Below are positions 27,769 through 60,842 of a stretch of DNA of 64,000 nt, in pieces. This stretch comes from Alphaproteobacteria bacterium. GTDB lineage: Bacteria; Pseudomonadota; Alphaproteobacteria; UBA828. The position numbers were made by a program, and so were the translations under genes. The stretch lies in assembly GCA_963422645.2 (NCBI GenBank), contig CAXXVO010000007.1:416001-480000 (forward strand), written 5' to 3'. Each line of letters starts with the position of its first letter. Within the stretch, counting starts at the first letter, position 1. The notes beneath the pieces were generated by a model. It did no database searches and was not told where the DNA came from. It worked only from the letters and a program-made list of their open reading frames with translations.

Positions 27769-27769
27769 C

Positions 27770-31569: not shown

Positions 31570-31586
31570 GATGGGGTTCCGCGAGA

Positions 31587-37496: not shown

Positions 37497-37497
37497 C

Positions 37498-38193
37498 GTG
37501 ACCAGTCGGGCGATTCCTTTGGATGCGCCAACCCTCAATAAGGCTCGTTGGTGTCGCCGTCAACTCCTCGCGTGGTATGTTCGACATGGTCGCGAATTTC
37601 CATGGCGTTCGTGCAATGCGAGTCTCTACCAGCAGGTCGTCGCCGAGGTCCTGCTTCAGCGAACACAAGCTTCGACAGTCAGCAAGTTCTTTGACTCTTT
37701 CTTTCAGAAGTTCAAGACTTGGAATGACATCGACATGGCTCCGATTGGGCAGTTGGAGAATGCGCTTAGACCTATCGGTCTTTGGCGACGAAGAGCAACC
37801 GCCCTGAAGGCACTTGCTAGGGAACTGGTAGTGCGAGGGGGCAGTTTTCCACCATCGCGCGAGGAACTTGAGGCCTTGCCCGCTGTCGGGCAGTATGTCG
37901 CGAGCTCTGTGCTATTGTTCGCATACAATCGTGCAGAGCCTTTGCTTGATGAAAGCATGGCGCGCGTCATTGAACGTGTATTCGAGCCGCGACGTCTGGT
38001 GGACATTCGCTATGACCGGCGCCTGCAAGCTCTGGCGCGGTTATTGGTGCGGTCGCGCAATCCAGCTCGGGTCAACTGGGCGCTGCTCGATGTGGCCGCT
38101 CGAAACTGCCTCCGTCGAACACCGAATTGCAATGAGTGTCCCCTGAAACGACATTGCAATTTCGCGAATGGCATTAAGGTGCCGACGTACTGA
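37498..38193 (+). CDS. HhH-GPD DNA glycosylase with [4Fe-4S], Mig (T:G mismatch)-like
   Basis: FPWR, EVLLQRT, IGL...RA, LPAVGQY, conserved Asp, C-x6-C-x2-C-x5-C; no MutY NUDIX tail. Confidence 0.8.
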   Translation: MTSRAIPLDAPTLNKARWCRRQLLAWYVRHGREFPWRSCNASLYQQVVAEVLLQRTQASTVSKFFDSFFQKFKTWNDIDMAPIGQLENALRPIGLWRRRATALKALARELVVRGGSFPPSREELEALPAVGQYVASSVLLFAYNRAEPLLDESMARVIERVFEPRRLVDIRYDRRLQALARLLVRSRNPARVNWALLDVAARNCLRRTPNCNECPLKRHCNFANGIKVPTY

Positions 38194-44477: not shown

Positions 44478-44626
44478 CCTCAGGCCTCCGCTTCGGCAAA
44501 GATCGTAACTGTGCGCCGCAGATGGGGTAGTGTGGGGCAGCGGATATCGCGCGGCAACGGTCCGGCCCGGCCGATCAAGGGAGCGCCGTGGTGCCGGCAC
44601 CGACCGCGCCTATAAGGGAGGCAACC

Positions 44627-46075
44627 ATGTCGACGCTGATCAGGGGCGGCACGGTGGTGACCGCAGACGAGCGCTACCCGGCCGATGTCTATTGCGCGGA
44701 CGGCAAGATTCAGGAGATCGGGACCGGCCTCGACGTGCCCGCGGGCACGGCGACGGTCGATGCCGGAGAGGCGCTGGTCATGCCAGGAGGCATCGACCCC
44801 CACACCCATATGGAAACGCCCTTCATGGATACCGTGACTGGCGATGACTTCTATACCGGCCCCGCCGCCGGGCTCTCGGGCGGCACCACCATGATCATCG
44901 ACTTCGTCATCCCGGCGCCCGACCAGCGGCCGATGGACGCCTACCGCATCTGGCAGCAGCGCGCGGCGAAGGCGCCGTCGGACTATTCCTTCCACGTCGC
45001 GATCACCAACTGGAACGACGAGATTCACGAGGATATGGAGACGCTGACCCGCGATCACGGCGTCAACAGCTTCAAGCACTTCATGGCCTACAAGGGCGAG
45101 GTCATGCTCGACGCGGAGAAGATGATGAACAGCTTCGCGCGGGCGCGGGATCTCGGCGCGCTCTGCACCGTTCACTGCGAGGACGGCCATCTGGTCTGGA
45201 TGATGCAGCAGGAGCTGCTCAAGGCCGGCGTCACCGGGCCGGAGGGCCACCCCCAGTCGCGCCCGCCCGAGGTCGAGGGCGAGGCGACCAACCGCGCGAT
45301 CCGCATCGCCCAGCTGCTCAAGGCGCCGATCTACATCGTCCACGTGACCTGCCGGGAGTCGCTGGAGGCGATCACGCGCGCGCGCCTGGAGGGGCAGCGG
45401 GTCTATGGCGAGTGTCTGGCGCAGCACCTGGTGATCGACGATAGCGTCTATTACGACCCCGACCCGGAGGTCGCCCGCGGCTACGTGATGAGCCCGCCCT
45501 TCCGGCCCAAGGACCATCAGGAGGACCTCTGGCGCGGCCTGCAATCGGGCAACCTGCAGACCACGGCGACCGATCACTGCGCCTACTGCAACTGGCAGAA
45601 GGAGAAGGGCAAGGATGACTTTTCCAGGATCCCGAACGGCACCAGCGGCATCGAGGACCGCATGTCGGTGCTCTGGGACCAGGGCGTCGAGACCGGCCGG
45701 ATCACGGCCAACGAGTACGTCGCGATCACGTCGGCCAACGCCGCGAAGATTTTCAACGTCTATCCGCGCAAGGGGGCGATCAAGGTGGGCGCGGACGCGG
45801 ACATCGTTGTCTGGGACCCCAAGGCCACGCGCACGATCTCGGCCAAGACCCATCTCCAGAACAACGATTTCAATATCTATGAGGGGATGACCGTGACCGG
45901 CGTCGCCCGCGCCACCGTGAGCCGGGGCCGGCACGTGTGGGACGGCTCGGAGATCCGCGCCGACCAGGGCGACGGCGCCTACGTCGAGCGGCCGACCTTC
46001 CCGGCCGTGTTCGACGCCGTGAACACGCTGCGCGCCCGCCACCCCTTCCGCAGCGTCGATCGCCCGGCCGGCTAG
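44627..46075 (+). CDS. hydA: Dihydropyrimidinase/D-hydantoinase
   Basis: PGGIDPHTH, SFKHFMAYK, VHCEDG, SRPPEVEGEA, MSPPFR, TDHC, IPNG. Confidence 0.93.
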   Translation: MSTLIRGGTVVTADERYPADVYCADGKIQEIGTGLDVPAGTATVDAGEALVMPGGIDPHTHMETPFMDTVTGDDFYTGPAAGLSGGTTMIIDFVIPAPDQRPMDAYRIWQQRAAKAPSDYSFHVAITNWNDEIHEDMETLTRDHGVNSFKHFMAYKGEVMLDAEKMMNSFARARDLGALCTVHCEDGHLVWMMQQELLKAGVTGPEGHPQSRPPEVEGEATNRAIRIAQLLKAPIYIVHVTCRESLEAITRARLEGQRVYGECLAQHLVIDDSVYYDPDPEVARGYVMSPPFRPKDHQEDLWRGLQSGNLQTTATDHCAYCNWQKEKGKDDFSRIPNGTSGIEDRMSVLWDQGVETGRITANEYVAITSANAAKIFNVYPRKGAIKVGADADIVVWDPKATRTISAKTHLQNNDFNIYEGMTVTGVARATVSRGRHVWDGSEIRADQGDGAYVERPTFPAVFDAVNTLRARHPFRSVDRPAG

Positions 46076-46198: not shown

Positions 46199-47503
46199 TT
46201 AGACGGCTGCGCTCCAGCTCCGTTCGCAGACGATCTCCGGGTCCTCCCTGAACACCTTGAGCGGCGAGCAGGGCGGCGGGACCGAGATCGCCTGAATCAC
46301 GGTCAGGGGCTCGCGCAGGTAGTCGCCGAGCGCGCAGTCTTCGGCGCTCCGCTCCGGGGTTTCGATATGCGTGCCCAGGCGGCGGCCGAAGCGGACCAGG
46401 GCGCGGCCGTAGCGGGTCCGCTCCTCGTCGTAGGCCGAAAGCGCGCTCCCGAGATCGCCAGGATGGGCCTCGATGGCCCGGGTGAGGCAGTTCGCATCGC
46501 CGGTCGCCTTGACCACGCCCATGCCGGTGTGGGGCCTGGCGGAGAACGCCGAATCGCCCAGCATGGCGACGCGCCCCTGCACCATCCGGGGCACCTCCAG
46601 GTCCACGATGGTCTGGAAGAAGAGCCCTTCCGCCAGGCTCATCGGCTCCGCGAGCGAAGGCGGCAGGCGCTCGGCCGCCGTTCGATGGACCTCATCGATG
46701 AACGAAGGGAGGATAAGGTGCGGCGCGATCCCCCCCTCGTGATAGTGGCCGGTGGCGTCGGTCTGCATCCGCCGCAGCTTCTCGGCCGGGGTCAGCGTGT
46801 ACCAGACGATGTTGAAGCGGCGCTTGCCGGGGCTCAGCTCGCCCTCCGGGCCCGCCACCGGGTAGGCGACCACGTGCTCGCCGGGCGGCAGGTAGACGAT
46901 GAAATGCGACATCAGCATGTCGCGCCACTCGGCCGAGAGCCGGTTCTCGTCGACGATGCCGCGCCAGGCGACATAGCCCGCGTACTGCGGCGCCGCATCC
47001 GGCCAGACCTGGGGGCGAACTGTGGAGCGCACGCCGTCGGCGCCGATCAGAAGATCGGCCTCGATGCTGGTGCCGTCGGCGAAGTGCGCAAGCACGCCCT
47101 CGCCGTGGGGCTCGAAGCCTGTAAAGTTGGCGCCAGAGATGTAGCGCTCGCCGGGAAAGTTGCTGCGCAGCAGGCCGAATAGATGCCCCCAGGACGCCTG
47201 GATCTGCGGCAGGCGGTAGCGCGCGAGAATGCTGCCGTCGGCGCCGAGGGTGATGCGCTCCTCGAGCCTCACGCCATAGGCCTCGTCGATGGACAGCCCC
47301 AGGCTCTCGAGCGCGGCGTGAAGCTCCGGGTGGGTCGCGATGCCGACGCCCCGCTCGGCAAGCTCGGTGCCGATCCGCTCGTGCACCGTCACGTCGCAGC
47401 CGGCGCGGTAGAGCATGTTGCCGGCGAGCAAGCCGCCCATCGACCCGCCGACGACAACCACGCGGGGGCTTCGGGCACCTTGCCCGACAGAACCCTTTGT
47501 CAT
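46199..47503 (-). CDS. FAD monooxygenase, 2,6-dihydroxypyridine 3-hydroxylase-like
   Basis: VVGGSMGG, GADG, YAGYVAWRG, RFNIVWY, GD.A...RPH..G..KA. Confidence 0.75.
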   Translation of the reverse strand: MTKGSVGQGARSPRVVVVGGSMGGLLAGNMLYRAGCDVTVHERIGTELAERGVGIATHPELHAALESLGLSIDEAYGVRLEERITLGADGSILARYRLPQIQASWGHLFGLLRSNFPGERYISGANFTGFEPHGEGVLAHFADGTSIEADLLIGADGVRSTVRPQVWPDAAPQYAGYVAWRGIVDENRLSAEWRDMLMSHFIVYLPPGEHVVAYPVAGPEGELSPGKRRFNIVWYTLTPAEKLRRMQTDATGHYHEGGIAPHLILPSFIDEVHRTAAERLPPSLAEPMSLAEGLFFQTIVDLEVPRMVQGRVAMLGDSAFSARPHTGMGVVKATGDANCLTRAIEAHPGDLGSALSAYDEERTRYGRALVRFGRRLGTHIETPERSAEDCALGDYLREPLTVIQAISVPPPCSPLKVFREDPEIVCERSWSAAV

Positions 47504-47774
47504 GGAAACTGACTCCGTTCCAAGCGTTACTTACCGCTCGGGCGGGCGGCCCCGAAGCCGGCCCGCCGCGAACGAATTTCCGGGCACAAGCCTACGCCAT
47601 GCGCGCGCCGCTCGCCATTCGGCAGCGTGCGTGCCGGCTCTCTTGCGCCACACTTTTCCTTCACACGCCTCGCGGTATACCCTCTCCGCGATTGCCCACC
47701 GGGGCGTCGATTACAGGGGTCTGGGCGCCGGCCTGGTCCCAAAGCGTGTCGCGAGCGAGAGGGAGTGGGGGCTT

Positions 47775-48086
47775 ATGCATCTCACTGTGCGGGAAGAAGA
47801 ACGGATACAGATTTGGGCCGCGGCGGAGATGGCCAGGCGGCGTCTCGATCGGGGCGTCAAGCTGAACTACCCCGAGGCGATCGCTCTGATCTGCGACGAG
47901 ATTCTCGAGCGGGCGCGCGAGGGCAGCATCCCGATGCTGACCGACATGATGGAATACGGCGCCACCATCCTGAAGCGGGACGACGTGATGACCGGCGTGC
48001 CCGAGATGATGAAGATCGTCCAGGTCGAGGCCATGTTCCCGGACGGGACGAAGCTCGTCACGGTGATGAACCCGATCCGCGAGTAG
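47775..48086 (+). CDS. ureA: Urease gamma subunit
   Basis: MHLTVREEE, LNYPEAIA, QVEAMFPDGTKLVTV. Confidence 0.93.
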   Translation: MHLTVREEERIQIWAAAEMARRRLDRGVKLNYPEAIALICDEILERAREGSIPMLTDMMEYGATILKRDDVMTGVPEMMKIVQVEAMFPDGTKLVTVMNPIRE

Positions 48087-48111: not shown

Positions 48112-48621
48112 ATGGCTGAGAGAAAATGGAGCCCGCCGCCTATCCCGGAATCGATCGTGCCGGACGAGGCGTTCGAGGTGGGCGAGCCGGAGAAGTGCGG
48201 CGCCATCGACTTCGCCGACGACGACATCGAGATCAATGCCGGTCGCCCCGCGATAGAGGTCGTCATGGTCAACACCGGCGACCGCCCGATCCAGATCGGC
48301 GCCCACTACCACCTCGCCGAGTGCAACAGGGCGATGGCCTTCGACCGGGCGGCCGCCTTCGGCATGCGCCTCGACGTGCCGAGCGGCAGCGCCGTGCGCT
48401 TCGAGCCCGGCCAGAGCCGCAAGGTGCAGATCACCGGCTACGTCGGCCGCCAGGTCGCCTACGGCATGAACAACATGACCAACGGCTCGGTCCGCTCCGG
48501 CATCATCAAGGAGCAGACCATGCGTCGCCTCAGGGCCGAGGGCTATTGCTTCGAGGGCGAGCGTTTTCCGGTGCAAACGCCGCCCGACGAGAAGTTCGGC
48601 GGCGGCAAGGACGGCGACTGA
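48112..48621 (+). CDS. ureB: Urease beta subunit with N-terminal extension
   Basis: NTGDRPIQIGAHYH, GMRLDVPSGSAVRFEPG. Confidence 0.92.
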   Translation: MAERKWSPPPIPESIVPDEAFEVGEPEKCGAIDFADDDIEINAGRPAIEVVMVNTGDRPIQIGAHYHLAECNRAMAFDRAAAFGMRLDVPSGSAVRFEPGQSRKVQITGYVGRQVAYGMNNMTNGSVRSGIIKEQTMRRLRAEGYCFEGERFPVQTPPDEKFGGGKDGD

Positions 48622-48678
48622 GGTTGGCAGCGCCGGCCTGAGAAGGCGCCGGCCGCGCCAGGAGTGGGGAAGCAAAGC

Positions 48679-50385
48679 ATGAGCATGAAGATCGCCCGCC
48701 CGGACTACGCCGCGCAGTACGGGCCGACCACCGGAGACAAGATCCACCTCGCCGACACCGGCCTCGTGGCCGAGATCGAGCACGACTACACCACCTATGG
48801 CGACGAGTTGGTTTTCGGCGGCGGCAAGACCATCCGCGACGGCATGGGCCAGGCGTCGAAGTGGAAGCAGAGCGACGGCGGGCTCGACATGGTGATCACG
48901 AACGCCGTGATCATCGACCCCGTCCTCGGCGTCGTGAAGGGCGACATCGGGGTGCTGGACGGCGAGATCGTCGGCGTCGGCAAGGCCGGCAACCCCGACA
49001 CCATGAACATCACGCCGGGGCTCATCGTCTCGCCCAACACCGACATCCTCTCGGTGGAGGGGATGATCTGCACGCCGGGCTTCGTCGACATCCATCCCCA
49101 CTTCGATTCCGTGCAACAGCTCTACGAGTATCAGAACGCGGGCTTCACCACGGTGATCGGCGGCGGCTCGGGACCGAAGACGGTGGGCATCGAGTGCCCC
49201 GGCGTCTTCAACATCCAGCGCATGCTGGAGGCGATGGCGGACATCCCGCTCAACTTCGGCAACTTCGGCAAGGGCAACGCGGCGACGCCGGGCTCGCTGG
49301 TGGAGCAGATCCTCGCTGGCGCCACGGGGCTGAAGATCCACGAGGACTGGTCGTCCTCGCCCGCCGCCATCGAGACCACGATGGAGCTTGCGGACGAGTA
49401 CGACTTCCAGGTCCAGATCCACGCCGACACGCTGAACGAGACCGGCTACTACGAGGACACCATCGCCGCGATCAACGGCCGCGTCATGCACATCTACCAC
49501 TGCGAGGGCGCCGGCGGCGGCAACGCGCCCGACATGATGCGAGTCTGCGGCGAGCCGAACCTGCTGCCAAGCTCGACCAACCCGACCAACCCCTTCTCGA
49601 TCAACACGTACGACGAAGAGATCGACATGTTGATCACCTGCCACAACCTGAACAAGAGCGTGCCGACGGACATCGCCTTCATCCAGGGCCGCGCACGCGC
49701 GGAGACCATGCGGGCCGAGGACGTGCTGCACGACATGGGCGCGATCAGCATGATCGGCTCCGACAGCCAGGGCGTGGGCCGCGCGGCGGAGAGCGCGCAG
49801 CGCTCCTTCCAGCTCGCGGCGGTCAACAAGGTGCGCTTCGGGCGGCTCTCGGAGGACGGTTCGGGCAACGACAACTTCAGGATCAAGCGCTATCTCGCCA
49901 AGGTCACGATCAACCCCTCGATCTGCTTCGGCGTCGACTCTTACGTGGGCTCGATCACGCCGGGCAAGCTCGCGGACCTGGTGTTCTGGCGGCCCGAGTT
50001 CTTCATCGCCAAGCCCGAGGTGACGCTGAAGGGCGGCTTCATCTCGCACGCGGTGATGGGCGACCCGGCGGGCTCGCTGATGACCGGCCAGCCGCTCAAG
50101 TACCGCCCGCAGTACGGCTCCCTCGGCGTCAACCCGAAGCGGACCTGCTACTCCTTCGTGACCAAGGCGGCGCTCGACAACGGCCTCGCGGACCAGATCG
50201 AGACCCAGAGGCTGGTGCCGGTGAAGCGCTGCCGCACGATCTCCAAGCGCGACATGATCCACAACGACGCGCTGCCGGATATCGAGATCGACCCAGAGAC
50301 CTACAACGTCTACGTCGATGGCGAGCGCGTCACGGTGAAGCCGGCAAAGACCCTGCCGCTGACCCAGCTCTTCTACTTCCGCTAG
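48679..50385 (+). CDS. ureC: Urease alpha subunit, divergent
   Basis: DIHPH, GLKIHEDW, HADTLNE, YHCEGAGGG, CH flap, SDSQ; all Ni ligands present. Confidence 0.93.
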   Translation: MSMKIARPDYAAQYGPTTGDKIHLADTGLVAEIEHDYTTYGDELVFGGGKTIRDGMGQASKWKQSDGGLDMVITNAVIIDPVLGVVKGDIGVLDGEIVGVGKAGNPDTMNITPGLIVSPNTDILSVEGMICTPGFVDIHPHFDSVQQLYEYQNAGFTTVIGGGSGPKTVGIECPGVFNIQRMLEAMADIPLNFGNFGKGNAATPGSLVEQILAGATGLKIHEDWSSSPAAIETTMELADEYDFQVQIHADTLNETGYYEDTIAAINGRVMHIYHCEGAGGGNAPDMMRVCGEPNLLPSSTNPTNPFSINTYDEEIDMLITCHNLNKSVPTDIAFIQGRARAETMRAEDVLHDMGAISMIGSDSQGVGRAAESAQRSFQLAAVNKVRFGRLSEDGSGNDNFRIKRYLAKVTINPSICFGVDSYVGSITPGKLADLVFWRPEFFIAKPEVTLKGGFISHAVMGDPAGSLMTGQPLKYRPQYGSLGVNPKRTCYSFVTKAALDNGLADQIETQRLVPVKRCRTISKRDMIHNDALPDIEIDPETYNVYVDGERVTVKPAKTLPLTQLFYFR

Positions 50386-50410: not shown

Positions 50411-50887
50411 ATGGCGGTCGTCACCGCGGTCCTCGGCACCGTCGAATCCCTGCGCGGCCGCTTCGAGAACGAGGACCCGGTCCTGCTCAACTCGGAGGAG
50501 CGCGCGAGCGCCCACCTCGTGGGCCGCTCAGAAGGCGGGCGCAACGTTCGCATCTCGCTGCCGCGCGGCACCGAGATCAACGACGGCGACGTGCTCACGC
50601 TGGAGGGAACCACGGCCGTGGTGGCGCGCGCGGCGCCGGAGGCGCTCTACGTGGTCAGCCCCGACGACGCCTACACCTGGGGCGTCGCCGGCTACCAGCT
50701 CGGCAATCTGCACCGGCCCGTGCGCTTCACGGACGATGGCATGCTGACGCCGGCCGACCCCATGGTGGCCGATCTTCTCACGCGCCTCGGCATCGCCTTC
50801 GAGGAGCGGACCATGCCCTTCGTCGGCCGCCGCTACGGTGCCCACGGCGCGCACCATCATCTCCACGACCACCACCATGACCACTGA
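50411..50887 (+). CDS. ureE: Urease accessory protein UreE
   Basis: DGDVL, LGNLH, His-rich C-terminus. Confidence 0.88.
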   Translation: MAVVTAVLGTVESLRGRFENEDPVLLNSEERASAHLVGRSEGGRNVRISLPRGTEINDGDVLTLEGTTAVVARAAPEALYVVSPDDAYTWGVAGYQLGNLHRPVRFTDDGMLTPADPMVADLLTRLGIAFEERTMPFVGRRYGAHGAHHHLHDHHHDH

Positions 50888-51575
50888 CGCGCCCGACCGT
50901 CTCCTTTACCTGCTGCAGGTGGCGAACGCCTCGTTCCCGACCGGCGCGTTCAATCACTCCTACGGCTTCGAGACCTGGATCGACTCAGGCGCACTCGACA
51001 ACGCCGCAAGCTTCGAGAGCGCCTGCCGGGACTGGCTCCGCTACGCCGCCGTGCCGACGGACGGGGCCGCCGTCGCCCTCGCCCACCGACACGCCGCCGC
51101 CGGCGATCTCGACGGGCTCGTGGACCTCGACCACATCGTCTGCGCGCTCAAGCTCAGCCGTGAGGCGCGCGAGGCGTCGTTCAAGACCGGCCGCGCGCTG
51201 CTCGGCGCCTACCGCGACATCTTCTCGGCCGATTCCCTCGCTCCCTTCGCCGAGGCGACGCGCGACGGGCGCTGCGAGGGGCATCAGGCGGTCATCTTCG
51301 GCGCGGCGGCTGAGGCGCAGGGTATCGGCGTGGAAGACGCGGTGCTTGCCTTCCTTCACGCGGCGCTCTCCAACCTGGTCAGCGTCGGCGCGCGGCTGAT
51401 CCCCCTCGGCCAAATCGAGAGCCAGCGCATCGTGCGGGAGGCTTGGCCGCTGCTGACCCGAGGGGCCGACCAGGCCTGCGCCATGGAGATCGACACGCTC
51501 GGCAGCGCCACCGCCGGCCTCGATGTCGCCAGCATGCGGCACGAGCGCCTGCACACGCGGCTCTGCATGTCATGA
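50877..51575 (+). CDS. ureF: Urease accessory protein UreF
   Basis: [31 protein letters not shown]. Confidence 0.92.
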
Positions 51576-51612: not shown

Positions 51613-52257
51613 ATGCGCAAGCCGGTCAGGATCGGCATCGGCGGGCCGGTGGGCTCGGGCAAGACGGCGCTGCTGGTGTCGCTCTGCCGCAGCATGGGCG
51701 GGCACCATTCGCTGGCCGCCATCACCAACGACATCTACACCAAGGAAGACGCCGAGTTCGTCGTCAAGTCCGGCGCCATCGCGCCCGAGCGCGTGGCCGG
51801 CGTCGAGACCGGCGGCTGCCCCCACACCGCGATCCGCGAGGATGTCTCGATGAACGCCCACGCCATCGAGGAGATGGCGGCGCTGCATCCCGACCTCGAC
51901 ATCGTCTTCGTCGAGAGCGGCGGCGACAATCTCGCGGCGACCTTCAGCCCCGAGCTGGTGGACAGCTACATTTACGTGATCGACGTGGCGGAGGGCGACA
52001 AGATCCCGCGCAAGGGCGGCCCCGGCATCACCAAGTCGCCGCTGCTGGTCATCAACAAGATCGACCTCGCGCCCTTCGTCGGTGCCGACCTGGGGGTGAT
52101 GGAGCGCGATTCCAAGAAGATGCGGGGCGCGCGGCCCTTCCTCTTCACCAACCTGCGCGCCGGCGACGGCCTTGCCGAGGTGATCGCCTGGATCGAGCGC
52201 GACGTTCTCCTGATGGATGGGCATGACGGAGCCGAGCAGCGCGCCCATTCAGCCTGA
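51613..52257 (+). CDS. ureG: Urease accessory GTPase UreG
   Basis: [26 protein letters not shown]. Confidence 0.96.
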
Positions 52258-53095
52258 TCCCGAATGGATCGTCGGCAAGTACGCGCTGATGAACGTCCGC
52301 GCGATGAGCCGGCTCGGGCGCACGGAAATCGACCCGCTCTGCTGGCGCATCCCCTTCCAATGGCAGGGCTATCACTACCAGGATCACGACGACCAGCCCT
52401 TCATGCTGCTGCTCAACAGCGGCGGCGGCTTCGTCGAGGGCGACGTCTCGCACTTCAATGCCGTGCTGGAGCCCGGCACCCGCGCCCTCTTCACCACCAC
52501 GGCATCGAGCAAGTTCTACAAGTGCCCGGGCGGGGCGATCTCGCGCGAGATCGTGGACCTCCATGTGGGCGAAGACGCGCTGCTGGAGTTCTGCCCGGAC
52601 GAGGCGATCCCCTTTGCCCGCAGCCGGGTGCACCGAATCAACCGCATCGCGCTGGAGCCCTCGTCGCGGCTCTTCGCCACCGACATGGTCTCGGCAGGCC
52701 GGGTGCACTATGGCGACGGCGAGATCTTCCGCTTCCACCGCCTGGTCTCCGAGTTCCGCATCGCCATCGGTGGCCGGCTGGTCGCCCTCGACCGCCTGAT
52801 CGCGACCACGCCCGAGACCATCGCCGCGCTGCAGAGGCTGTGGCAGGAGCGGCTGCACATGGCGATGGCGTTCGCCTACGCGCCGGACCTGGCGCCCGGC
52901 GTCGAGGACGACGTGCACGAGGCGATCGAAGGCGTCGACGGCACCGAGGCGGGCGTCACCCGCATCGGCAACCTGGTGATCGTCCGCATCCTGAGCCACG
53001 AGACCTGGCAGGCCCACGAGACCCTCTTCAACGCGTGGGCCGCGCTCCGCCCCGCCATCGCAGGCAAGAACGCCCGCCCGATACGCAAGTGCTAG
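52217..53095 (+). CDS. ureD: Urease accessory protein UreD
   Basis: [31 protein letters not shown]...GE.F; last gene of the ure cluster. Confidence 0.85.
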
Positions 53096-53315: not shown

Positions 53316-54221
53316 ATGGCCAAGAAGGAAATCTTCGTCGCAATCGGCGTGGACGTCGATTCGGTGGCGGGGCAGATCGGTTCCTACGCGGGCGGCGATT
53401 CGCCGAGCGACATTTCGCGGGGCGTGTTCGCCTCCGAGGTCGGAACCCCCCGCATGCTCAAGCTCTTCGACCGGGCGGGAATCCAGACCAGCTGGTTCAT
53501 CCCCGGCCACTCGATCGAGACCTTCCCGAGAGAGATGAAGGCGGTCGCGGCGGCAGGGCACGAGATCGGGCTGCACGGCTACACTCACGAGAACCCGATC
53601 TCGATGACGCCAGAGCAGGAGGCGGACGTCCTCGACAAGACCCTCGATCTGGTGACCAAGCTCGCCGGCAAGGCGCCCACGGGCTACGTCGCGCCCTGGT
53701 GGGAGATGAGCCCGTTCACGCCCCACCTCCTGATGGAGCGCGGCATCAAGTACGACCACAGCCAGATGCACAACGACTTCGAGCCCTATTGGATGCGGAT
53801 CAACGAGGAGTGGACGTTGATCGACTATTCCAAGCCGGCGAAGTCGTGGATGAAGCCGATGAAGAAGGGCACCACCTTCCCCATCGTGCAGATCCCCGGC
53901 AGCTGGTACCTCGACGACCTGCCGCCGATGATGTTCATGAAGAAGGTGCCGAACTCCGGCGGCTGGACCAACCCGCGCGATATCGAGGACTGGTGGCGCG
54001 ATCAGTTCGACTGGGTCTATCGGGAGATGGACTACGCGGTCTACACGCTGACCATCCACCCCGACATCTCGGGCCGGCCGCAGACGCTGCTGATGCTGGA
54101 GCGCATCATCGCCCACATCGCCGCCCATGAAGGGGTGACCTGGGCGACCTTCGACGAGATCGCCGACGACTTCATCAAGCGCCGGCCCTTCAAGGGCAAG
54201 AGGGCACCCAAGAAGAAGTAA
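53316..54221 (+). CDS. CE4 polysaccharide deacetylase family, PuuE/HP0310-like
   Basis: [53 protein letters not shown]. Confidence 0.85.
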
Positions 54222-54235
54222 GCCGCAGGCCCGCG

Positions 54236-54598
54236 ATGTGCGCGCTCTGCGGCGTGCTCACCGACGGCCCGCATTGGACTGAGGCAGGCACCGATGCGGG
54301 CCGGAGCGCCGAGGCGCCCACCGGCCGGGAGCGGCACCTGGAGCGCGCGCGGCGCCTCGCGCTGCTGAACCGCGTGCTGAGCGCTTACGGCTGCACCGCA
54401 GACGACTGGGCCGGCGCGCAATACATGGTGCACCGGCGGAGCGGCGGCGCGACCGAGATGGCGGCCGACCTGCCCACGCTCTGGGCCGCGGTCGAAGGCT
54501 TGGTCGGCTATGCGCCCGATCCGCTAGACCCCGCCCTGGTCGCGCGGCTCGAGGCTGCGCCATCCGCCGGGGGGCGCGCGGCCCGGCGGCGGGCTTGA
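54236..54598 (+). CDS. Small hypothetical protein with N-terminal CxxC
   Basis: MCALCGVL...HW...DPLDP; overlaps or abuts the CobW-like gene. Confidence 0.7.
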   Translation: MCALCGVLTDGPHWTEAGTDAGRSAEAPTGRERHLERARRLALLNRVLSAYGCTADDWAGAQYMVHRRSGGATEMAADLPTLWAAVEGLVGYAPDPLDPALVARLEAAPSAGGRAARRRA

Positions 54599-54603
54599 GG
54601 GCG

Positions 54604-55653
<1,050 letters not shown>

Positions 55654-56613: not shown

Positions 56614-58499
56614 GTAACTGCCCAGGTCGTCTGATTTGTCATTTTGGGCCAGTGGATTGAGGCGTTTCTCGTTCGGAGTTGGTGGAAAGGGCTTGACGGG
56701 AATTTCGGGAAATGACTCAACAACGACATGAGCAATCCCGAGTCGCCGCGCGGCCCTTCGACGGGAGCAGCGCCCGAAACGCCCGCGCAGAAGATCGCCC
56801 GCCTGGAGGAGGAGAACGCCCGGCTTCGGGAGGAAAATGCCTGGCTTCGGCAGCAGAACGCGCGGCTGGAAGAGCAAGTCGCGCGTCTCGTCGAGCGCAT
56901 CGAGGAGTTGGAGCGCCGTCTCGGCCTCAACAGCGGCAACAGCGGCAAGCCGCCTTCGAGCGATGGGCTGAGGAAGCCGAATTCGAAGCGGCGAACCCGA
57001 AGCCTGCGCGGCAAATCGGGCCGCAAGCCCGGTGGCCAGCCCGGCCACAAGGGCAAGACGCTGCGCCGCGCCGATCACCCGGATCGGGTGAAGGATCACG
57101 TCCCGGCTTCCTGCAAGGGATGCGGTTCGCCGCTTTCGGACGCGGCCAGGGCGGGAACGCCCGTCGCCCGCCAGGTGTTCGATCTGCCCGAGCCGAGCCC
57201 CCTGGAGGTGACCGAGCACCGGGCGCATGCCAAGTGCTGCGGGCATTGCGGGACGGTGACCCGGGCGGCGTTCCCCGACGGGGTGTCGGCGCCGGTGCAG
57301 TACGGCCCGCGCATTGCCGGGGTGGCGGTCTACCTTCAGCACGCTCACTTCCTGCCGGAGGATCGGCTGTCGCAGGTGATGGCCGAGCTCTTCGGCGCGC
57401 CGGTGACGGCTGCGACGTTGGCGACGATGAGCGAGAGGGCGGCCGAGCGGCTGCGGGACGCGGCCTTGCACATACAGGACCTGGCGGCGGGCACGGCGCG
57501 GGTGAAACACATGGACGAGACCGGCTTGCGGATCGGCGGTCAGACGCAGTGGCTTCATGTGATCTGCACGCCGCTGCTGGCGGCGTACCGGGTCAGCGGC
57601 AAGCGCGGCGCCCTGCTCTCGGGTGTCTCCGGCATCGTCGTGCACGATCACTGGAAGCCGTACTTCGCGATGGAAGGGGTGGAGCACGGCCTGTGCAACG
57701 CCCATCACCTGCGGGAGTTGCAGGCGCTGGTGGACATCGAAGGGGAGGCTTGGGCCCGGCGGATGCAGCAGCTCCTGCGCCGAGCCAATCGCGCCGCCCG
57801 CATCGCGCTGGACAAGGATATCGCCGTTCCGGCGAGGCTTGTGGCGCTGATCGAGCGCCGATACGACGAGATCATCGCCGATGCGCTGGCCTTTCACGAG
57901 AGCCAACCACCGTTCTCGCCTGGCAAGAGGAAGAAGCGCCGGAAGCGAAGGATCGGTCACAATCTGGCCTTGAGGCTGCGCGACCACAAATGCGCGGTGC
58001 TCCGGTTCCTGATCGACCTCGAGGTCGGGTTCACGAACAACGAGGCCGAGCGCGACCTTCGGATGATGAAGCTGCGCCAGAAGATCTCCGGGGGCTTCCG
58101 GTCCGCGCAGGGGGCCGAGAACTTCGCCATCCTGCGCAGCGTCATCACCACCGCCAGAAAGCAGGGCTGGAATATCATCGAAGCCCTGACCAGCCCATCG
58201 GATCGGCTCATCGCCACCGTCAAGTGCGCGTAAGCTCACCTGGCACGGGTTCTCCAACAGCGGAGCCATTCTCATAAACGATCATGGTCGACGCCGTGCT
58301 GGACCACCCCATAGAATGAAAATCGGTGCCCGTCGCGCGGGCGGACTTCGGGCCACATCGGGGTAGCTTACCGGTCGCAGTCCGCAAGAGGGGCATCGTG
58401 AGCTGTGAAACCCGGCGACCCCAGAGGAGCACACGGGCGTCGCGTGGGTAGCGTTGTGCCGAATCCCAGAGAATTTTCACAGCAAGAACCTGGGCAGTT
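56614..58499 (+). mobile_element. IS66-family element A (single ORF)
   Basis: IRL GTAACTGCCCAGG at 56614; IRR CCTGGGCAGTT ends at 58499, lacking the terminal AC. Confidence 0.88.
56728..58233 (+). CDS. IS66 transposase
   Basis: NSGKPPSSD, GGQPGHKG, DETG, HDHW, CNAHHLREL, TNNEAERDLR. Confidence 0.95.
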   Translation: MSNPESPRGPSTGAAPETPAQKIARLEEENARLREENAWLRQQNARLEEQVARLVERIEELERRLGLNSGNSGKPPSSDGLRKPNSKRRTRSLRGKSGRKPGGQPGHKGKTLRRADHPDRVKDHVPASCKGCGSPLSDAARAGTPVARQVFDLPEPSPLEVTEHRAHAKCCGHCGTVTRAAFPDGVSAPVQYGPRIAGVAVYLQHAHFLPEDRLSQVMAELFGAPVTAATLATMSERAAERLRDAALHIQDLAAGTARVKHMDETGLRIGGQTQWLHVICTPLLAAYRVSGKRGALLSGVSGIVVHDHWKPYFAMEGVEHGLCNAHHLRELQALVDIEGEAWARRMQQLLRRANRAARIALDKDIAVPARLVALIERRYDEIIADALAFHESQPPFSPGKRKKRRKRRIGHNLALRLRDHKCAVLRFLIDLEVGFTNNEAERDLRMMKLRQKISGGFRSAQGAENFAILRSVITTARKQGWNIIEALTSPSDRLIATVKCA

Positions 58500-58641: not shown

Positions 58642-59307
58642 ATGGGGTATTTCGGCTCGAAGGCGACAGCAGGTCTGTGCCAAGCGCTGATTGCGCTGAT
58701 GCCGCCGCACTCCGTCTACATCGAAAGCCACCTTGGGGGCGGGGCGCTGATGAAGCGCAAGCCGCCGGCCGTGCGTTCGATCGGCATCGACCGCGATGCG
58801 CAGGCGCTCGAGGCCTTCGTCTGCGACTACCCGGTCGATCTGGTTCACGGCTGTGCCCATGACTTCCTGGCCTCGTTCCCGTTCCTGGGCCCGGAGCTGG
58901 TTTACAGCGATCCGCCCTATCTGCACGCGACCCGCCGCTCGGCGCAGCGCTACCGCTTCGAGTACGAGGAGGCCGGCCACGTCGCGCTTCTCGCGCTGCT
59001 CAAGGCTCTGCCCTGCCAGGTCATGATCTCGGGCCATCCGTCGGCGCTCTATGACGAGGTGCTGGCGGGATGGCGCCGGCTGGCGCTGCAGGTCACGACC
59101 CAGGGTCTGGTGCGAACCGAGGTCGTCTGGTTCAACTACGCCCCCGACCGGATGCATTGGGCCAGCCACGCAGGCCGGAACTTCACCGACCGCCAGCGCA
59201 TCAAGCGCAAGGCAGCCAACTGGGGCCGGCGCTACCAGGCCTTGCCGCCGGGCGAACGCCTCGCCGTGCTCGCCGCCATGATGGCCGTCGAGGCCGAAGA
59301 CACGTGA
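58642..59307 (+). CDS. Dam-like (D12 class) N6-adenine DNA methyltransferase
   Basis: YFGSK, YIESHLGGG, YSDPPY, EVVWFNY; GTGA overlap with tnp. Confidence 0.85.
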   Translation: MGYFGSKATAGLCQALIALMPPHSVYIESHLGGGALMKRKPPAVRSIGIDRDAQALEAFVCDYPVDLVHGCAHDFLASFPFLGPELVYSDPPYLHATRRSAQRYRFEYEEAGHVALLALLKALPCQVMISGHPSALYDEVLAGWRRLALQVTTQGLVRTEVVWFNYAPDRMHWASHAGRNFTDRQRIKRKAANWGRRYQALPPGERLAVLAAMMAVEAEDT

Positions 59308-60842
59308 CGGTGTCGCACTGGCACGAAGACCTCGCCGCCCGTAACGAGGCCTTCTGCTGCCTGAAGGAGCTTCTCGAGCCATCATCCCTCGCAACCACTG
59401 TCGTCGTTGCCGTCCGGGAATGGGGGCAGGGGCTGCTGCGATCAGCCACCGCGCTCGCCCGGGAAAATGCCGCACTCGAGCAGGAGAACGCGGCCCTGCG
59501 CGAGCGCATCGCCGAACTCGAGCGCAGCGCGGCCCTCAACAGCACCACAAGCAGCAAGCCCCCCGCCAGCGACGGGCTCAAGAAGAAAAGCGGAGCCCAG
59601 AGGCGCACCCAAAGCCAGCGCGGAAAGTCCGGCGGGCCCAGTGGCGGCCAGCCCGGCCACAAGGGAACCACCCTCGCGCGGAGCGACAGCCCGGACCGTG
59701 TCGTCGATCACCACCCCTCCACCTGTTCCGGCTGTGGCGTCGAGCTCTCGGACGCCGACCGGCAAGGCGCGCCCGCCTGTCGGCAGGTCTTCGACGTACC
59801 CGAGCCGCAGCCTCTCGAGGTCACCGAACACCGCGCCCATCGCTGCCTCTGCGGCGCATGCGGCACGCTGACACGAGCCGCCTTCCCGCCGGGCGTCACC
59901 GCCCCGGTCCAGTACGGCCCTCGCATCACCGCTTGGGTGAGTTACCTGCTGTACGCCCAGTTCGTGCCCGAGAAGCGTCTGGCCGAACTCATGAGCGACA
60001 TCTTCGCGGTGTCCATCTCCACTGCCACGATCGCCGCCATGGGCCGGCGCACAGCGCAGCGCTTCGAGGGCTTCCTCGACCATGTCGCCGATCTGATCCG
60101 CACGCAGGCGCCGGTCAAGCACCTCGACGAGACCGGCCTGCGTATCGCCGCCCGTACCCGCTGGCTCCATGTGCTGTGCACCCCGTTGCTCACCGTCCTG
60201 CGCATCGGCGAGGGACGCGGCGATGTCGAAAAGAACCTGAAAGGCATCCTCGTCCACGACGACTTCGCCCCCTACTTCACCATCAAGGGCGTCCGCCACG
60301 GCGCCTGCAACGCACATCACCTGCGCGAACTCCAGGCCCTGATCGACATCGAGAAGGAGGAATGGGCGGCGAGCATGCACCGCCTGCTTCAGCGCGCGCG
60401 CAGGGCCGCCCGCTTCGCCCGTGAGAAAGACCGTCAAGTCCCCGCCTCCCTGGTGGCCCGCATCTCAAGGGCATGGGACCGTATCCTCGAAGAAGCCATC
60501 GCCTTCCATGAGGCCCAACCGCCGCTCCAGATCGCAAAGCGAGGGCGAAAGAAACGCCGCATCGGCCACAACCTCGCGCGCCGCCTTCAAAAGCATAAGG
60601 AGGGCTGCCTGCGCTTCCTCACCGACCTGCGCACGCCGTTCACGAATAACGAGGCGGAGCGTGACATCCGTATGAACAAAGTGCATGAGAAGATCTCAGG
60701 CGGCTTCCGCTCCCTGCAAGGCGCCTGCAACTTCGCCGGAATGCGCAGCGTCATCGTCACCGCTCGAAAGCAAGGCTGGAACATCCTGCAAATCCTGGCG
60801 CACCCGGAACCGATGCAGCTGATCCCTATACTGCGCTCCTGA
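59304..60842 (+). CDS. IS66 transposase
   Basis: SSKPPASD, GGQPGHKG, DETG, CNAHHLREL, TNNEAERDIR. Confidence 0.94.
   Translation: MTVSHWHEDLAARNEAFCCLKELLEPSSLATTVVVAVREWGQGLLRSATALARENAALEQENAALRERIAELERSAALNSTTSSKPPASDGLKKKSGAQRRTQSQRGKSGGPSGGQPGHKGTTLARSDSPDRVVDHHPSTCSGCGVELSDADRQGAPACRQVFDVPEPQPLEVTEHRAHRCLCGACGTLTRAAFPPGVTAPVQYGPRITAWVSYLLYAQFVPEKRLAELMSDIFAVSISTATIAAMGRRTAQRFEGFLDHVADLIRTQAPVKHLDETGLRIAARTRWLHVLCTPLLTVLRIGEGRGDVEKNLKGILVHDDFAPYFTIKGVRHGACNAHHLRELQALIDIEKEEWAASMHRLLQRARRAARFAREKDRQVPASLVARISRAWDRILEEAIAFHEAQPPLQIAKRGRKKRRIGHNLARRLQKHKEGCLRFLTDLRTPFTNNEAERDIRMNKVHEKISGGFRSLQGACNFAGMRSVIVTARKQGWNILQILAHPEPMQLIPILRS

What the first reader, a model, noticed from the sequence alone, without database searches (positions are those of the whole stretch)
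48679..50385. Urease with intact di-nickel ligands but a rebuilt substrate pocket
Seen versus canonical Klebsiella UreC (recalled): HxH, carbamylated Lys, two His and Asp ligands are kept, but GTGPAAGTHATTCTPG becomes GSGPKTVGIECPG (3 aa shorter, loses the Ala167 loop), SDSQAMGR becomes SDSQGVGR (Ala363/Met364), GGGHAPD becomes GGGNAPD, flap EHLDMLMVCHHL becomes EEIDMLITCHNL, and SIPTPQP becomes SLMTGQP. Known: these segments line the urea site and are highly conserved. Full ureEFGD is retained, arguing against decay. Inference: a Ni amidohydrolase for a different substrate such as an N-substituted urea, carbamate or amide.
Basis: partly seen in the sequence, partly recalled or inferred. Interest (0 to 1): 0.72.

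Follow-up and report, generated by a model that had tools for sequence, protein, structure and literature searches.

The report
Divergent urease subfamily with rebuilt lid
This is an intact nickel-urease gene cluster from a rare, horizontally spread subfamily whose active-site lid (and, in relatives, the matching importer) is consistently altered, so it may prefer a urea-like compound rather than urea itself; nobody has tested it.

Summary

Three of the five listed changes are not special. The 3-aa shorter loop, A363G and SLMT are shared by a whole short-loop class of ureases, including this genome's two other ureC genes. CHNLN occurs in the characterised Yersinia urease.

What is special to this clade (81 sequences, several phyla, dN/dS 0.02-0.06):
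- 24 fixed changes at positions conserved in other ureases, 10-11 of them in the mobile flap (p about 1e-5).
- H280N and M364V.

Supporting context:
- In relatives the operon travels with a Urt-like importer whose pocket has lost Ser122 and Tyr141. UrtA, AmiC, archaeal and class-II-linked binders all keep them.
- It also travels with LuxR/GerE regulators and Ni transporters.
- 12 of 13 carrier genomes have further ureC genes.
- A nested subclade has lost Cys319/His320.

My reading is a functional, diverged urease-family hydrolase. It prefers either a small urea analogue (~0.45) or urea with altered kinetics or pH response (~0.4). The window copy lacks importer and regulator. No paper was found. 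The scan noted the short-loop class before (e1-4766400), not this clade.

The parts
47775..48086 (+). ureA (gamma subunit, 103 aa)
   Evidence: Translation. TIGR00193 scores 133.9 bits and PF00547 132.6 bits (run on 47778-48086). The start ATG comes from the alignment with relatives.
48112..48621 (+). ureB (beta subunit, 169 aa, with N- and C-terminal extensions around the 98-aa core)
   Evidence: TIGR00192 scores 125.9 bits over residues 29-127. The best match is to the beta half of the fused gamma/beta model NF009671.
48679..50385 (+). ureC (alpha subunit, 568 aa; an in-frame GTG at 48664 is an alternative start)
   Evidence: TIGR01792 scores 749 bits against a cut-off of 680. Identity to solved ureases is 49-51%. 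The AlphaFold model (pLDDT 85.5) matches them at TM 0.94-0.95.
50411..50887 (+). ureE with a His-rich C-terminal tail
   Evidence: PF05194 scores 53.7 bits. All NCBIfam UreE models score below their cut-offs.
50838..51575 (+). ureF (the likely start is the internal ATG near 50877)
   Evidence: PF01730 scores 140 bits. There is no NCBIfam hit.
51613..52257 (+). ureG (GTPase), one of only two ureG genes found in the genome
   Evidence: TIGR00101 scores 334.6 bits against a cut-off of 204. The own-genome search is.
52217..53095 (+). ureD
   Evidence: PF01774 scores 151.9 bits.
47504..47774 (.). Intergenic region upstream of ureA. In the 99%-identical relatives L007 and L009 the Urt-like ABC importer and the LuxR gene sit here; they are absent in the window. 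A GGTATACC palindrome lies about 100 nt before ureA.
   Evidence: Gene maps, alignment, palindrome search (6 of 39 upstream regions, closest relatives only). No close copy of the binding protein or LuxR was found elsewhere in the genome.
46199..47503 (-). FAD-dependent monooxygenase. It is a neighbour only in the closest relatives and is not part of the conserved module.
   Evidence: NF005566 scores 438.9 bits. It is present near ureA in L007-L010 and L045 only, and in 2 of 38 full-flank loci.
44624..46075 (+). D-hydantoinase/dihydropyrimidinase. It is a neighbour only in the closest relatives and is not part of the conserved module.
   Evidence: TIGR02033 scores 564.5 bits against a cut-off of 393. 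It was found in L008 and L009 only, and in 0 of 38 full-flank loci.

Best explanation
ureABCEFGD encodes a working nickel enzyme of the urease family, from a distinct, horizontally spread subfamily nested in the short-loop (class II) ureases.

Shown:
- The fold, the di-nickel ligands, the carbamylated Lys, His219, Asp221, the flap Cys-His and Arg336 are intact.
- The gene is under strong purifying selection.
- The lid (mobile flap) and second shell (H280N, M364V, G223S/T225S) are rebuilt in a fixed way.

Inferred:
- The chemistry is urease chemistry. A Ni-bridging hydroxide attacks a Ni-bound carbamoyl or amide carbon, and the flap His protonates the leaving nitrogen.
- The rebuilt lid has shifted what the enzyme prefers, towards a small urea-like compound carrying an extra group, such as an N-substituted urea. 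Some activity on urea is probably kept.

In most relatives the substrate is brought in by a dedicated Urt-like ABC importer. Its pocket has Gly and His where urea and acetamide binders have Ser and Tyr. There the operon is switched by a LuxR/GerE-type regulator and fed by Ni transporters.

In this genome the importer and regulator are missing, so the enzyme would act on substrate made inside the cell or taken up otherwise.
For: (1) 24 of 246 positions conserved and identical in class I (15 sequences) and class II (28) are switched and fixed in 81 clade members. The sister clade has 8 of 231. With the flap as defined in PMC7547064, and without the three columns that define the set, 10 of 23 switched positions lie in the flap against 30 of 243 eligible positions (Fisher p 7e-5).

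(2) The stem branch is 0.33, the longest internal branch of the tree, and the crown is tight. The clade is sister to a canonical-flap clade with support 1.0. dN/dS is 0.02-0.06.

(3) 12 of 13 genomes with the clade carry further ureC genes. 7 of 10 isolates have a class I gene above 900 bits. 4 of 5 isolates also have a canonical UrtA.

(4) The clade-linked binding protein has pocket Y-G-H-Q-E-Y-F-V-T in 32 of 33 cases and in 4 of 4 metagenome loci. Ser122 and Tyr141 are kept in UrtA structures and 8tg1, AmiC, the Haloarcula archaeal-type binder, and the class-I- and class-II-linked binders. Mutating Ser122 lowers or abolishes urea binding (PMC10392092 passages).

(5) LuxR/GerE regulators of three architectures sit beside the operon in three phyla.

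(6) A nested subclade of 16 lost Cys319. 7 of these also lost His320, and some changed Asp221 to Asn, while all keep the Ni ligands.
Against: - Every residue known to contact urea or to catalyse is kept. Ala167, Gly277 and Ala363 act through backbone carbonyls.
- H321N and D323N are in the active Yersinia urease. H312, L313 and E334 also vary among solved ureases (alignment for Yersinia; the other sequences are recalled).
- UreC passes the NCBIfam equivalog cut-off.
- One isolate (Rhodobacteraceae QY30) has only this ureC and no canonical UrtA.
- In this genome it is the only ure cluster with all of ureEFGD.
- No further catabolic enzyme is conserved next to it, as expected if the products are just ammonia and CO2.
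- The importer is still closest to urea-transporter families.
- A333I with I337A, L313I and M317I may be mere repacking of the flap helices (my inference).
- No coordinates were available, so the pocket could not be measured.
Confidence: 0.45

Rival explanations
1. It is a true urease (EC 3.5.1.5), an isozyme whose rebuilt flap changes gating, affinity or pH response rather than substrate. It would be used alongside other ureases under different regulation. In this genome it may be the main urease and the supplier of UreEFGD for the two incomplete class II clusters.
For: - All catalytic and urea-contacting groups are kept.
- The CHNLN motif is shared with the acid-optimum, low-Km Yersinia urease.
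- TIGR01792 scores 749 against a cut-off of 680.
- The fold matches solved ureases at TM 0.94-0.95.
- QY30 has this ureC only.
- The window cluster is the only one here with ureE, F, G and D. Only 2 ureG genes are in the genome.
- The linked importer is nearest to archaeal-type Urt models.
- No extra catabolic gene is conserved nearby.
Against: - Changes are fixed at positions that both urease classes keep, about three times as many as in the sister clade, and they are concentrated in the flap.
- The importer pocket lacks Ser122 and Tyr141, which every urea or acetamide binder examined keeps.
- The clade nearly always occurs together with other ureases and UrtA.
- A nested subclade has dispensed with the catalytic flap His.
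Confidence: 0.4
2. It is a decaying or catalytically silent urease copy kept by chance or hitch-hiking.
For: The importer and regulator present in the 99%-identical relatives L007 and L009 are missing here. IS66 transposases lie downstream.
Against: - All seven genes have open frames.
- dN/dS is 0.02-0.06, including against relatives that also lack the importer.
- The clade states are conserved across phyla.
- Contigs 93-97% alike occur in three RNA libraries, a weak hint only.
Confidence: 0.03
3. The lid changes serve something other than substrate choice: a different oligomeric assembly, a partner protein, or control of nickel insertion.
For: UreB carries N- and C-terminal extensions. Yersinia UreB also has an N-terminal extension, and its C-terminal part is described as a loop and helix in that dodecameric enzyme (PMC7547064 passages). 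The UreE, F and D proteins are only 40-60% identical across the clade while UreC is 80-99% identical.
Against: This does not explain the altered importer pocket or the dedicated regulators. The flap is not an assembly interface in solved ureases (recalled).
Confidence: 0.08

Closest known systems
Canonical nickel ureases (Klebsiella aerogenes UreABC, Sporosarcina pasteurii, Helicobacter pylori, jack bean)
   Same: Three-subunit layout and the ureEFGD accessory set. Identity is 49-51% and TM 0.94-0.95. All Ni ligands, the carbamylated Lys, His219, Asp221, Cys319-His320 and Arg336 are shared.
   Different: The loop after Ala167 is 3 aa shorter. H280N, M364V, A363G and G223S/T225S differ, and 10-11 flap positions are changed and fixed. 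The regulator and importer are of another type.
Short-loop 'class II' ureases (fused UreAB type of Methylobacterium and Aminobacter; this genome's C9 and C16 copies; the 62%-identity sister clade P0096-P0121)
   Same: The short GP-x-TVGI loop, SDSQG-x-GR and SLMT are shared. The group is monophyletic with support 0.999. UreB resembles the beta half of the fused subunit.
   Different: Those enzymes keep GGGHAPD, EHLDM..CHHL, FAESRIR and QGMGR. In the window's clade gamma and beta are separate genes. I found no biochemical study of class II in my searches.
Acid-optimum ureases of Yersinia enterocolitica and Morganella morganii
   Same: Asn follows the catalytic His, and the motif is CHNLN instead of CHHLD (alignment; PMC2806259 passage).
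   Different: Yersinia keeps the long loop, H280, M364, A363, FAESRVR and G223/T225 (alignment). It has Phe seven residues before the His, where this clade has Ile.
Helicobacter mustelae UreA2B2 (iron urease, PDB 3QGA)
   Same: It is a precedent for a second urease that keeps all ligands yet differs in a key property. It matches the model at TM 0.94.
   Different: As I recall, UreA2B2 works without the nickel accessory proteins. Here ureEFGD and Ni transporters (HupE/UreJ, NikR, NicO-like, Nik permeases) accompany the genes.
UrtABCDE urea importer, archaeal-type Urt (TIGR03669/03622/03727), and the AmiC acetamide sensor
   Same: The clade-linked transporter has the same five-component layout. 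Its binding protein matches UrtA structures at 1e-37 to 1e-40 and AmiC at 1e-16. Gln144, Glu146, Tyr190 and Phe192 are kept.
   Different: All four Urt models score below their cut-offs (337/495, 267/374, 333/576, 229/304). Ser122 is Gly and Tyr141 is His, invariantly. This transporter is absent from the window's genome.

Membership tests
Urease alpha subunit (TIGR01792 / EC 3.5.1.5) | Family profile score above the curated cut-off | tested here: met
   749.2 bits against a cut-off of 680. Class I genes of other carrier genomes score 917-1030.
Urease alpha subunit (TIGR01792 / EC 3.5.1.5) | Di-nickel ligands His134, His136, carbamylated Lys217, His246, His272 and Asp360 | tested here: met
   All are present (P0001 H139, H141, K219, H248, H274, D362) and invariant in 41 of 41 aligned sequences.
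Urease alpha subunit (TIGR01792 / EC 3.5.1.5) | Substrate and catalytic residues His219, Asp221, Gly277, flap Cys319-His320 and Arg336 | tested here: met
   Present in the window protein and in the 81 core members. They are lost only in a nested subclade of 16.
Urease alpha subunit (TIGR01792 / EC 3.5.1.5) | Otherwise conserved second-shell and flap residues (His280, Met364, Ser335, Ala333, Ile337, Gly223, Thr225) | tested here: not met
   These are replaced by N, V, G, I, A, S and S, and the replacements are fixed in at least 90% of 81 members.
Urease alpha subunit (TIGR01792 / EC 3.5.1.5) | Urease fold | tested here: met
   The AlphaFold2 model has pLDDT 85.5. It matches H. pylori, K. aerogenes, S. 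pasteurii and jack bean ureases at TM 0.94-0.95 and rmsd 2.3-2.5. The short loop 166-169 is of low confidence.
Urease alpha subunit (TIGR01792 / EC 3.5.1.5) | Hydrolysis of urea as the physiological reaction | not testable with these tools
   This needs an enzyme assay. No paper on this clade turned up in searches.
Nickel urease operon | Accessory genes ureD, ureE, ureF and ureG next to the structural genes | tested here: met
   ureABCEFGD is conserved across the clade.
Urea ABC importer UrtABCDE (partner system) | Binding protein with the urea-contact residues Trp120, Ser122, Tyr141, Gln144, Glu146, Tyr190, Asn246 and Ser274 (PMC10392092) | tested here: not met
   The clade-linked binder has Y, G, H, Q, E, Y, V and T in 32 of 33 and 4 of 4 cases. 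Trp to Tyr and Asn to Val also occur in the Haloarcula archaeal-type binder, while Ser to Gly and Tyr to His do not. No such gene lies in the window, and the best own-genome paralogue is 52% identical with pocket YSHQEYFVN.
Acid-optimum ureases (Yersinia/Morganella type) | Phe seven residues before, and Asn one residue after, the catalytic His | tested here: inconclusive
   Asn is present. Ile stands at the -7 position instead of Phe.

The most novel reading that the evidence does not exclude
This clade is the first branch of the urease family whose physiological substrate is not urea. It would be a nickel-dependent hydrolase for a small substituted urea or related amide, with its own co-evolved ABC importer, ligand-sensing LuxR/GerE regulator and nickel supply, spread by gene transfer across Proteobacteria, Actinobacteria and Chloroflexi. 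On this reading, a nested sub-branch that has discarded the flap Cys-His pair has moved on to yet another reaction.
Probability: 0.4. Interest if true: 0.8.

Novelty: new variant of a known kind. Interest (0 to 1): 0.6.

Why it matters
Urease is treated as a one-substrate enzyme, and ureC is used as a marker gene for urea use in oceans, soils, sponges and wastewater. If this subfamily prefers another compound, three things would follow:
- Part of the ureC signal in metagenomes would be misread.
- A new route for degrading substituted ureas (natural ones, or residues of drugs and herbicides) would come to light.
- The nickel-urease scaffold would be shown to be evolvable.

If instead it is a urease with a rebuilt lid, it is a natural experiment on how the flap sets affinity and pH response.

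Either way it can be tested directly, because cultured carriers exist (Methylopila capsulata, Hansschlegelia plantiphila, Chelatococcus reniformis, Camelimonas abortus).

Tried and rejected
1. Window neighbours as clues. The hydantoinase, FAD monooxygenase, polysaccharide-deacetylase-like gene, CobW-type GTPase and 3-hydroxyacyl-CoA dehydrogenase are not conserved in the clade. I dropped them as functional partners. The caprolactamase-like pair downstream in L007, L009, L010 and L045 is likewise lineage-specific.

2. Riboswitch or leader. Rfam at gathering score found nothing in the window. In 6 relatives it found only a tRNA and two '5_ureB_sRNA' hits antisense inside ureC, which I take as echoes of coding similarity.

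3. Operator. The GGTATACC palindrome upstream of ureA occurs only in the closest relatives, 6 of 39 upstream regions.

4. My first reading of the importer pocket was that it had lost 5 of 8 urea residues. I cut this to 2 clade-specific changes after the Haloarcula archaeal-type binder showed Trp to Tyr and Asn to Val too.

5. Naming the 62% sister clade's organisms failed. The cluster look-up gave no names, and the metagenome loci carry none.

6. Expression. Contigs 93-97% alike lie over ureB/ureC and ureG/ureD in three RNA libraries from three studies. The tool warns that DNA may be present in them, and the uncovered stretches prove nothing.

7. Pocket modelling. The fold was predicted, but no coordinates are returned, so distances could not be measured.

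8. Phenotype of QY30, the only genome with this ureC alone. The two papers that hold the name are unrelated, judging from the search listing only.

9. The ESM Atlas only returned the automatic label 'putative urea ABC transporter substrate-binding protein' for the binder's own cluster.

10. A methylotrophy link (many carriers are methylotroph genera by name) was not tested. I had no reliable family accession for the methylamine pathway genes.
Full report
**Anatomy**

On the + strand lie seven genes with open frames:
- ureA (47775-48086)
- ureB (48112-48621, 169 aa)
- ureC (48679-50385, 568 aa)
- ureE (50411-50887, His-rich tail)
- ureF (50838-51575)
- ureG (51613-52257)
- ureD (52217-53095)

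The family scans agree. UreC scores 749 bits on TIGR01792 against a cut-off of 680. UreG scores 335 against 204. UreA and UreB score above their cut-offs. UreF, UreD and the UreE C-terminal domain are above Pfam's gathering score (the UreE N-terminal domain, 25.5 against 26.9, just misses it), and UreE is below every NCBIfam UreE cut-off. UreC is 49-51% identical to solved ureases. An AlphaFold2 model (41-sequence alignment, pLDDT 85.5, pTM 0.91) superposes on H. pylori, K. aerogenes, S. pasteurii and jack bean ureases at TM 0.94-0.95. Its two flap helices lie at 310-321 and 329-336, and confidence is low at the shortened loop 166-169.

**Observation check**

Against Klebsiella pneumoniae and Proteus mirabilis UreC fetched here, the loop after Gly-Pro is 3 residues shorter. 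SDSQAMGR is SDSQGVGR, GGGHAPD is GGGNAPD, EHLDMLMVCHHL is EEIDMLITCHNL, and SIPTPQP is SLMTGQP. The Ni ligands, Lys217, His219, Asp221, Cys319, His320 and Arg336 are kept.

**Which differences are special**

The genome holds three ureC genes: C9 at 809 bits, the window at 749, and C16 at 735. None has the long-loop class I form. A complete single-contig relative, G058, also has three, so the copies are not assembly contamination.

Both paralogues, the Aminobacter and Methylobacterium plasmid genes, and a 62%-identity clade (P0096-P0121) share the short loop, A363G and SLMTC. They keep GGGHAPD, EHLDM..CHHL and QGMGR. Haloarcula UreC also has SLMTCEP. The solved Yersinia enterocolitica urease reads ..FDMIMVCHNLN. 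PMC2806259 (passages read) states that the consensus MVCHHLD is MVCHNLN there, and that acid-optimum ureases carry Asn after the catalytic His.

The review PMC7433671 (passages read) shows how urea is held. The contacts are His222 N-epsilon, the backbone carbonyls of Ala170, Ala366 and Gly280 (S. pasteurii numbering), and the flap His323. The side-chain changes at Ala167 and Ala363 therefore need not remove them.

**The clade**

The search of the 5.8-billion-protein set lists about 90 clusters at 74-100% identity, two at 68-70%, then a gap to 62%. The clade motifs are near-invariant.

The genome collection gave 79 loci. By their titles the carriers include:
- Alphaproteobacteria: Hansschlegelia, Methylopila, Chelatococcus, Camelimonas, Mesorhizobium, Pseudaminobacter, Hyphomicrobium, Roseovarius and many MAGs.
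- Burkholderiales.
- Mycobacterium sp. 141 and NAZ190054.
- Thermoleophilia and a Dehalococcoidales MAG.

The ten weakest loci (L075-L084, 54-56% identity; titles Rokubacteria, Methylomirabilota, Acidobacteriota and an unclassified bacterium) are not clade members; four of them serve as class I sequences below.

UreC is 78-99% identical across the clade loci of these phyla, apart from one 68% outlier (L073), while UreE, F and D are mostly 40-60% identical. In an even sample of 400 genomes of the window's class, 99 had a UreC match. Only 2 carried this clade, and both are in the window's own family.

In a FastTree LG+gamma tree of 153 sequences, the short-loop class has support 0.999. The clade is sister to the canonical-flap 62% clade with support 1.0. 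Its stem, at 0.33, is the longest internal branch. One fragment, L073, was left out of the tree. dN/dS of the window gene against five close relatives is 0.024-0.062.

**Fixed changes**

246 positions are at least 85% conserved and identical in 15 class I and 28 class II sequences. Of these, 24 are switched and at least 90% fixed in the 81 core members (K. aerogenes numbering):
A146Y, T159S, G223S, T225S, I268M, H280N, T305S, H312E, L313I, M317I, H321N, A333I, E334Q, S335G, I337A, I342M, A343R, M364V, G368A, W375F, Q384R, G441I, A463G, F565Y.

The sister clade shows 8 of 231 by the same rule, one of them in the flap. Eleven of the 24 lie in 305-343, a segment I chose after seeing the data (p 5e-6).

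A cleaner test uses the flap as defined in the Yersinia cryo-EM paper (residues 312-355 there, which is 307-350 in K. aerogenes numbering; passages read). It also drops the three columns that define the core set. Then 10 of 23 switched positions fall among 30 of 243 eligible positions (Fisher p 7e-5).

Caveats: the sequences are related, so this counts positions and not events. H312, L313, E334 and H321 vary in some solved ureases (for Yersinia; the others recalled). A333I with I337A looks like a compensating swap.

**Context in relatives**

I clustered ORFs from 68 loci plus the window. My ORF caller misses genes in low-GC loci, so the counts are lower bounds. Among the 38 loci with full 10-kb flanks:
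- 26 have a periplasmic binding protein.
- 25 have a UrtC-like permease.
- 27 have ABC ATPases.
- 21 have a LuxR gene with an autoinducer-binding-type domain.
- 8 have HupE/UreJ.
- A few have NikR, NicO-like or Nik-type permeases.

The LuxR protein matches RhlR and LasR at about 1e-16. Burkholderiales and Actinobacteria loci carry other GerE-type regulators instead. The transporter proteins fit the archaeal-type Urt models best, but all score below cut-off: 337/495, 267/374, 333/576 and 229/304.

**The importer pocket**

PMC10392092 (passages read) names the UrtA residues around urea: Trp120, Ser122, Tyr141, Gln144, Glu146, Tyr190, Phe192, Asn246 and Ser274. Mutating Trp120, Ser122, Gln144, Tyr190 or Asn246 lowers or abolishes binding.

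| Binder | Pocket residues |
|---|---|
| Clade-linked | Y G H Q E Y F V T (32 of 33; 4 of 4 metagenome loci) |
| Haloarcula, next to its urease | Y S Y Q E Y F V A |
| Next to a class I ureC | WSYQEYYNA |
| Next to class II ureC genes | YSY[FYL]EY[WY]V[AS] |
| AmiC | Ser and Tyr kept at both positions |

Ser122 to Gly and Tyr141 to His are therefore peculiar to this system. Both changes make room and alter hydrogen bonding beside one urea nitrogen.

**Co-occurrence**

Of 13 genomes with the clade (G000, ten isolates, G058 and G361), 12 have further ureC genes. 7 of the 10 isolates have one above 900 bits. In one search at most three candidates per genome were scored. 4 of 5 isolates tested also have a UrtA above cut-off. 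Rhodobacteraceae QY30 has only the clade gene and no such UrtA.

**State in this genome**

The 99%-identical relatives L007 and L009 have the importer and LuxR gene between the FAD monooxygenase and ureA. The window, L008, L010 and L045 do not. The genome's best match to the binder is 52% identical, with pocket YSHQEYFVN. The LuxR protein matches only through its DNA-binding end. No UrtA exceeds cut-off.

Only two ureG genes exist in the genome, the window's and one on C5. Within the 1.5 kb fetched on either side, the C9 locus shows only ureF beside ureAB-ureC, and the C16 locus shows only ureD. The window cluster is therefore the only complete one.

**Nested subclade**

Inside the clade, 16 sequences (P0064-P0068, P0070-P0076, P0079, P0080, P0085, P0086; support 0.999) have lost Cys319. 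Seven also lack His320 (VF or VQ). Seven read HEN for HED, six of them among those lacking His320. All keep the Ni ligands. I have no loci for them.

**Reading**

The enzyme is functional and belongs to the urease family. The burst of fixed lid changes, the co-varying importer pocket, the dedicated regulators, the coexistence with ordinary ureases and the later loss of the catalytic His in a sub-branch all point one way. They are best explained by a shift of preferred substrate to a small urea analogue (0.45).

A true urease with altered gating, affinity or pH response is nearly as likely (0.40). It is favoured by the intact first shell, the Yersinia precedent, QY30, and the lack of any further conserved catabolic gene.

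That canonical urease slowly turns over formamide, acetamide and N-methylurea is known (Dixon et al. 1980; I saw only the title, in the reference list of PMC6077230). Such a shift would therefore need only tuning.

**Literature**

Eight full-text searches found no study of this clade or of class II enzymes. Subscription-only papers are not covered by that library.

Noticed in passing
window 26389-38193: A low-GC island (55-60% against 65-70% around it). It holds a C5 DNA methylase (DruM-like in PADLOC), three large ORFs of 753, 513 and 1969 aa with no Pfam family (the largest has a weak mad8 match), and an HhH-GPD or 'type II nicking endonuclease' gene. It looks like an acquired defence-type module.
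   Followed up: partly
proteins P0064-P0068, P0070-P0076, P0079, P0080, P0085, P0086 (metagenomes; no loci): A subclade nested in the urease clade, 74-78% identical to the window UreC. It keeps all Ni ligands but has lost flap Cys319. 7 of 16 members also lost the catalytic His320, and seven read HEN for HED. This is a urease-family nickel protein without the general acid.
   Followed up: partly
L001 (G000 contig C9) and L003 (G000 contig C16): The genome's two other ureC genes are short-loop class II genes with fused ureAB. Within the 1.5 kb fetched on either side, they show only ureF (C9) or only ureD (C16) beside them. The C16 copy has CHLL and EQLDM in the flap. Only two ureG genes exist in the genome.
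   Followed up: partly
window 47504-47774 compared with L007 3037-8798: Compared with the 99%-identical relatives L007 and L009, the five-gene ABC importer and the LuxR gene between the FAD monooxygenase and ureA are missing here, as in L008, L010 and L045. This is a clean loss of uptake and control while the enzyme genes stay under purifying selection.
   Followed up: yes
window about 47665-47685: A GGTATACC palindrome about 100 nt upstream of ureA, conserved only in the closest relatives (window, L007-L010, L027). It may be an operator.
   Followed up: partly
window 56728-58233 and 59070-60842: Two IS66-family transposase genes lie just downstream of the ure region.
   Followed up: no
window 53316-55653: Downstream of ureD lie a polysaccharide-deacetylase-family gene (distant from PuuE allantoinase, 78 bits against a cut-off of 425), a 120-aa ORF with no family, and a CobW/YjiA-type metallochaperone GTPase. 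None is conserved in the clade.
   Followed up: partly
L021 10156-10438 and L028 10152-10444: The Rfam family 5_ureB_sRNA (a Helicobacter antisense RNA) scores above its gathering threshold antisense to the 5' part of ureC in two relatives. This most likely reflects conserved coding sequence and not an RNA gene.
   Followed up: no
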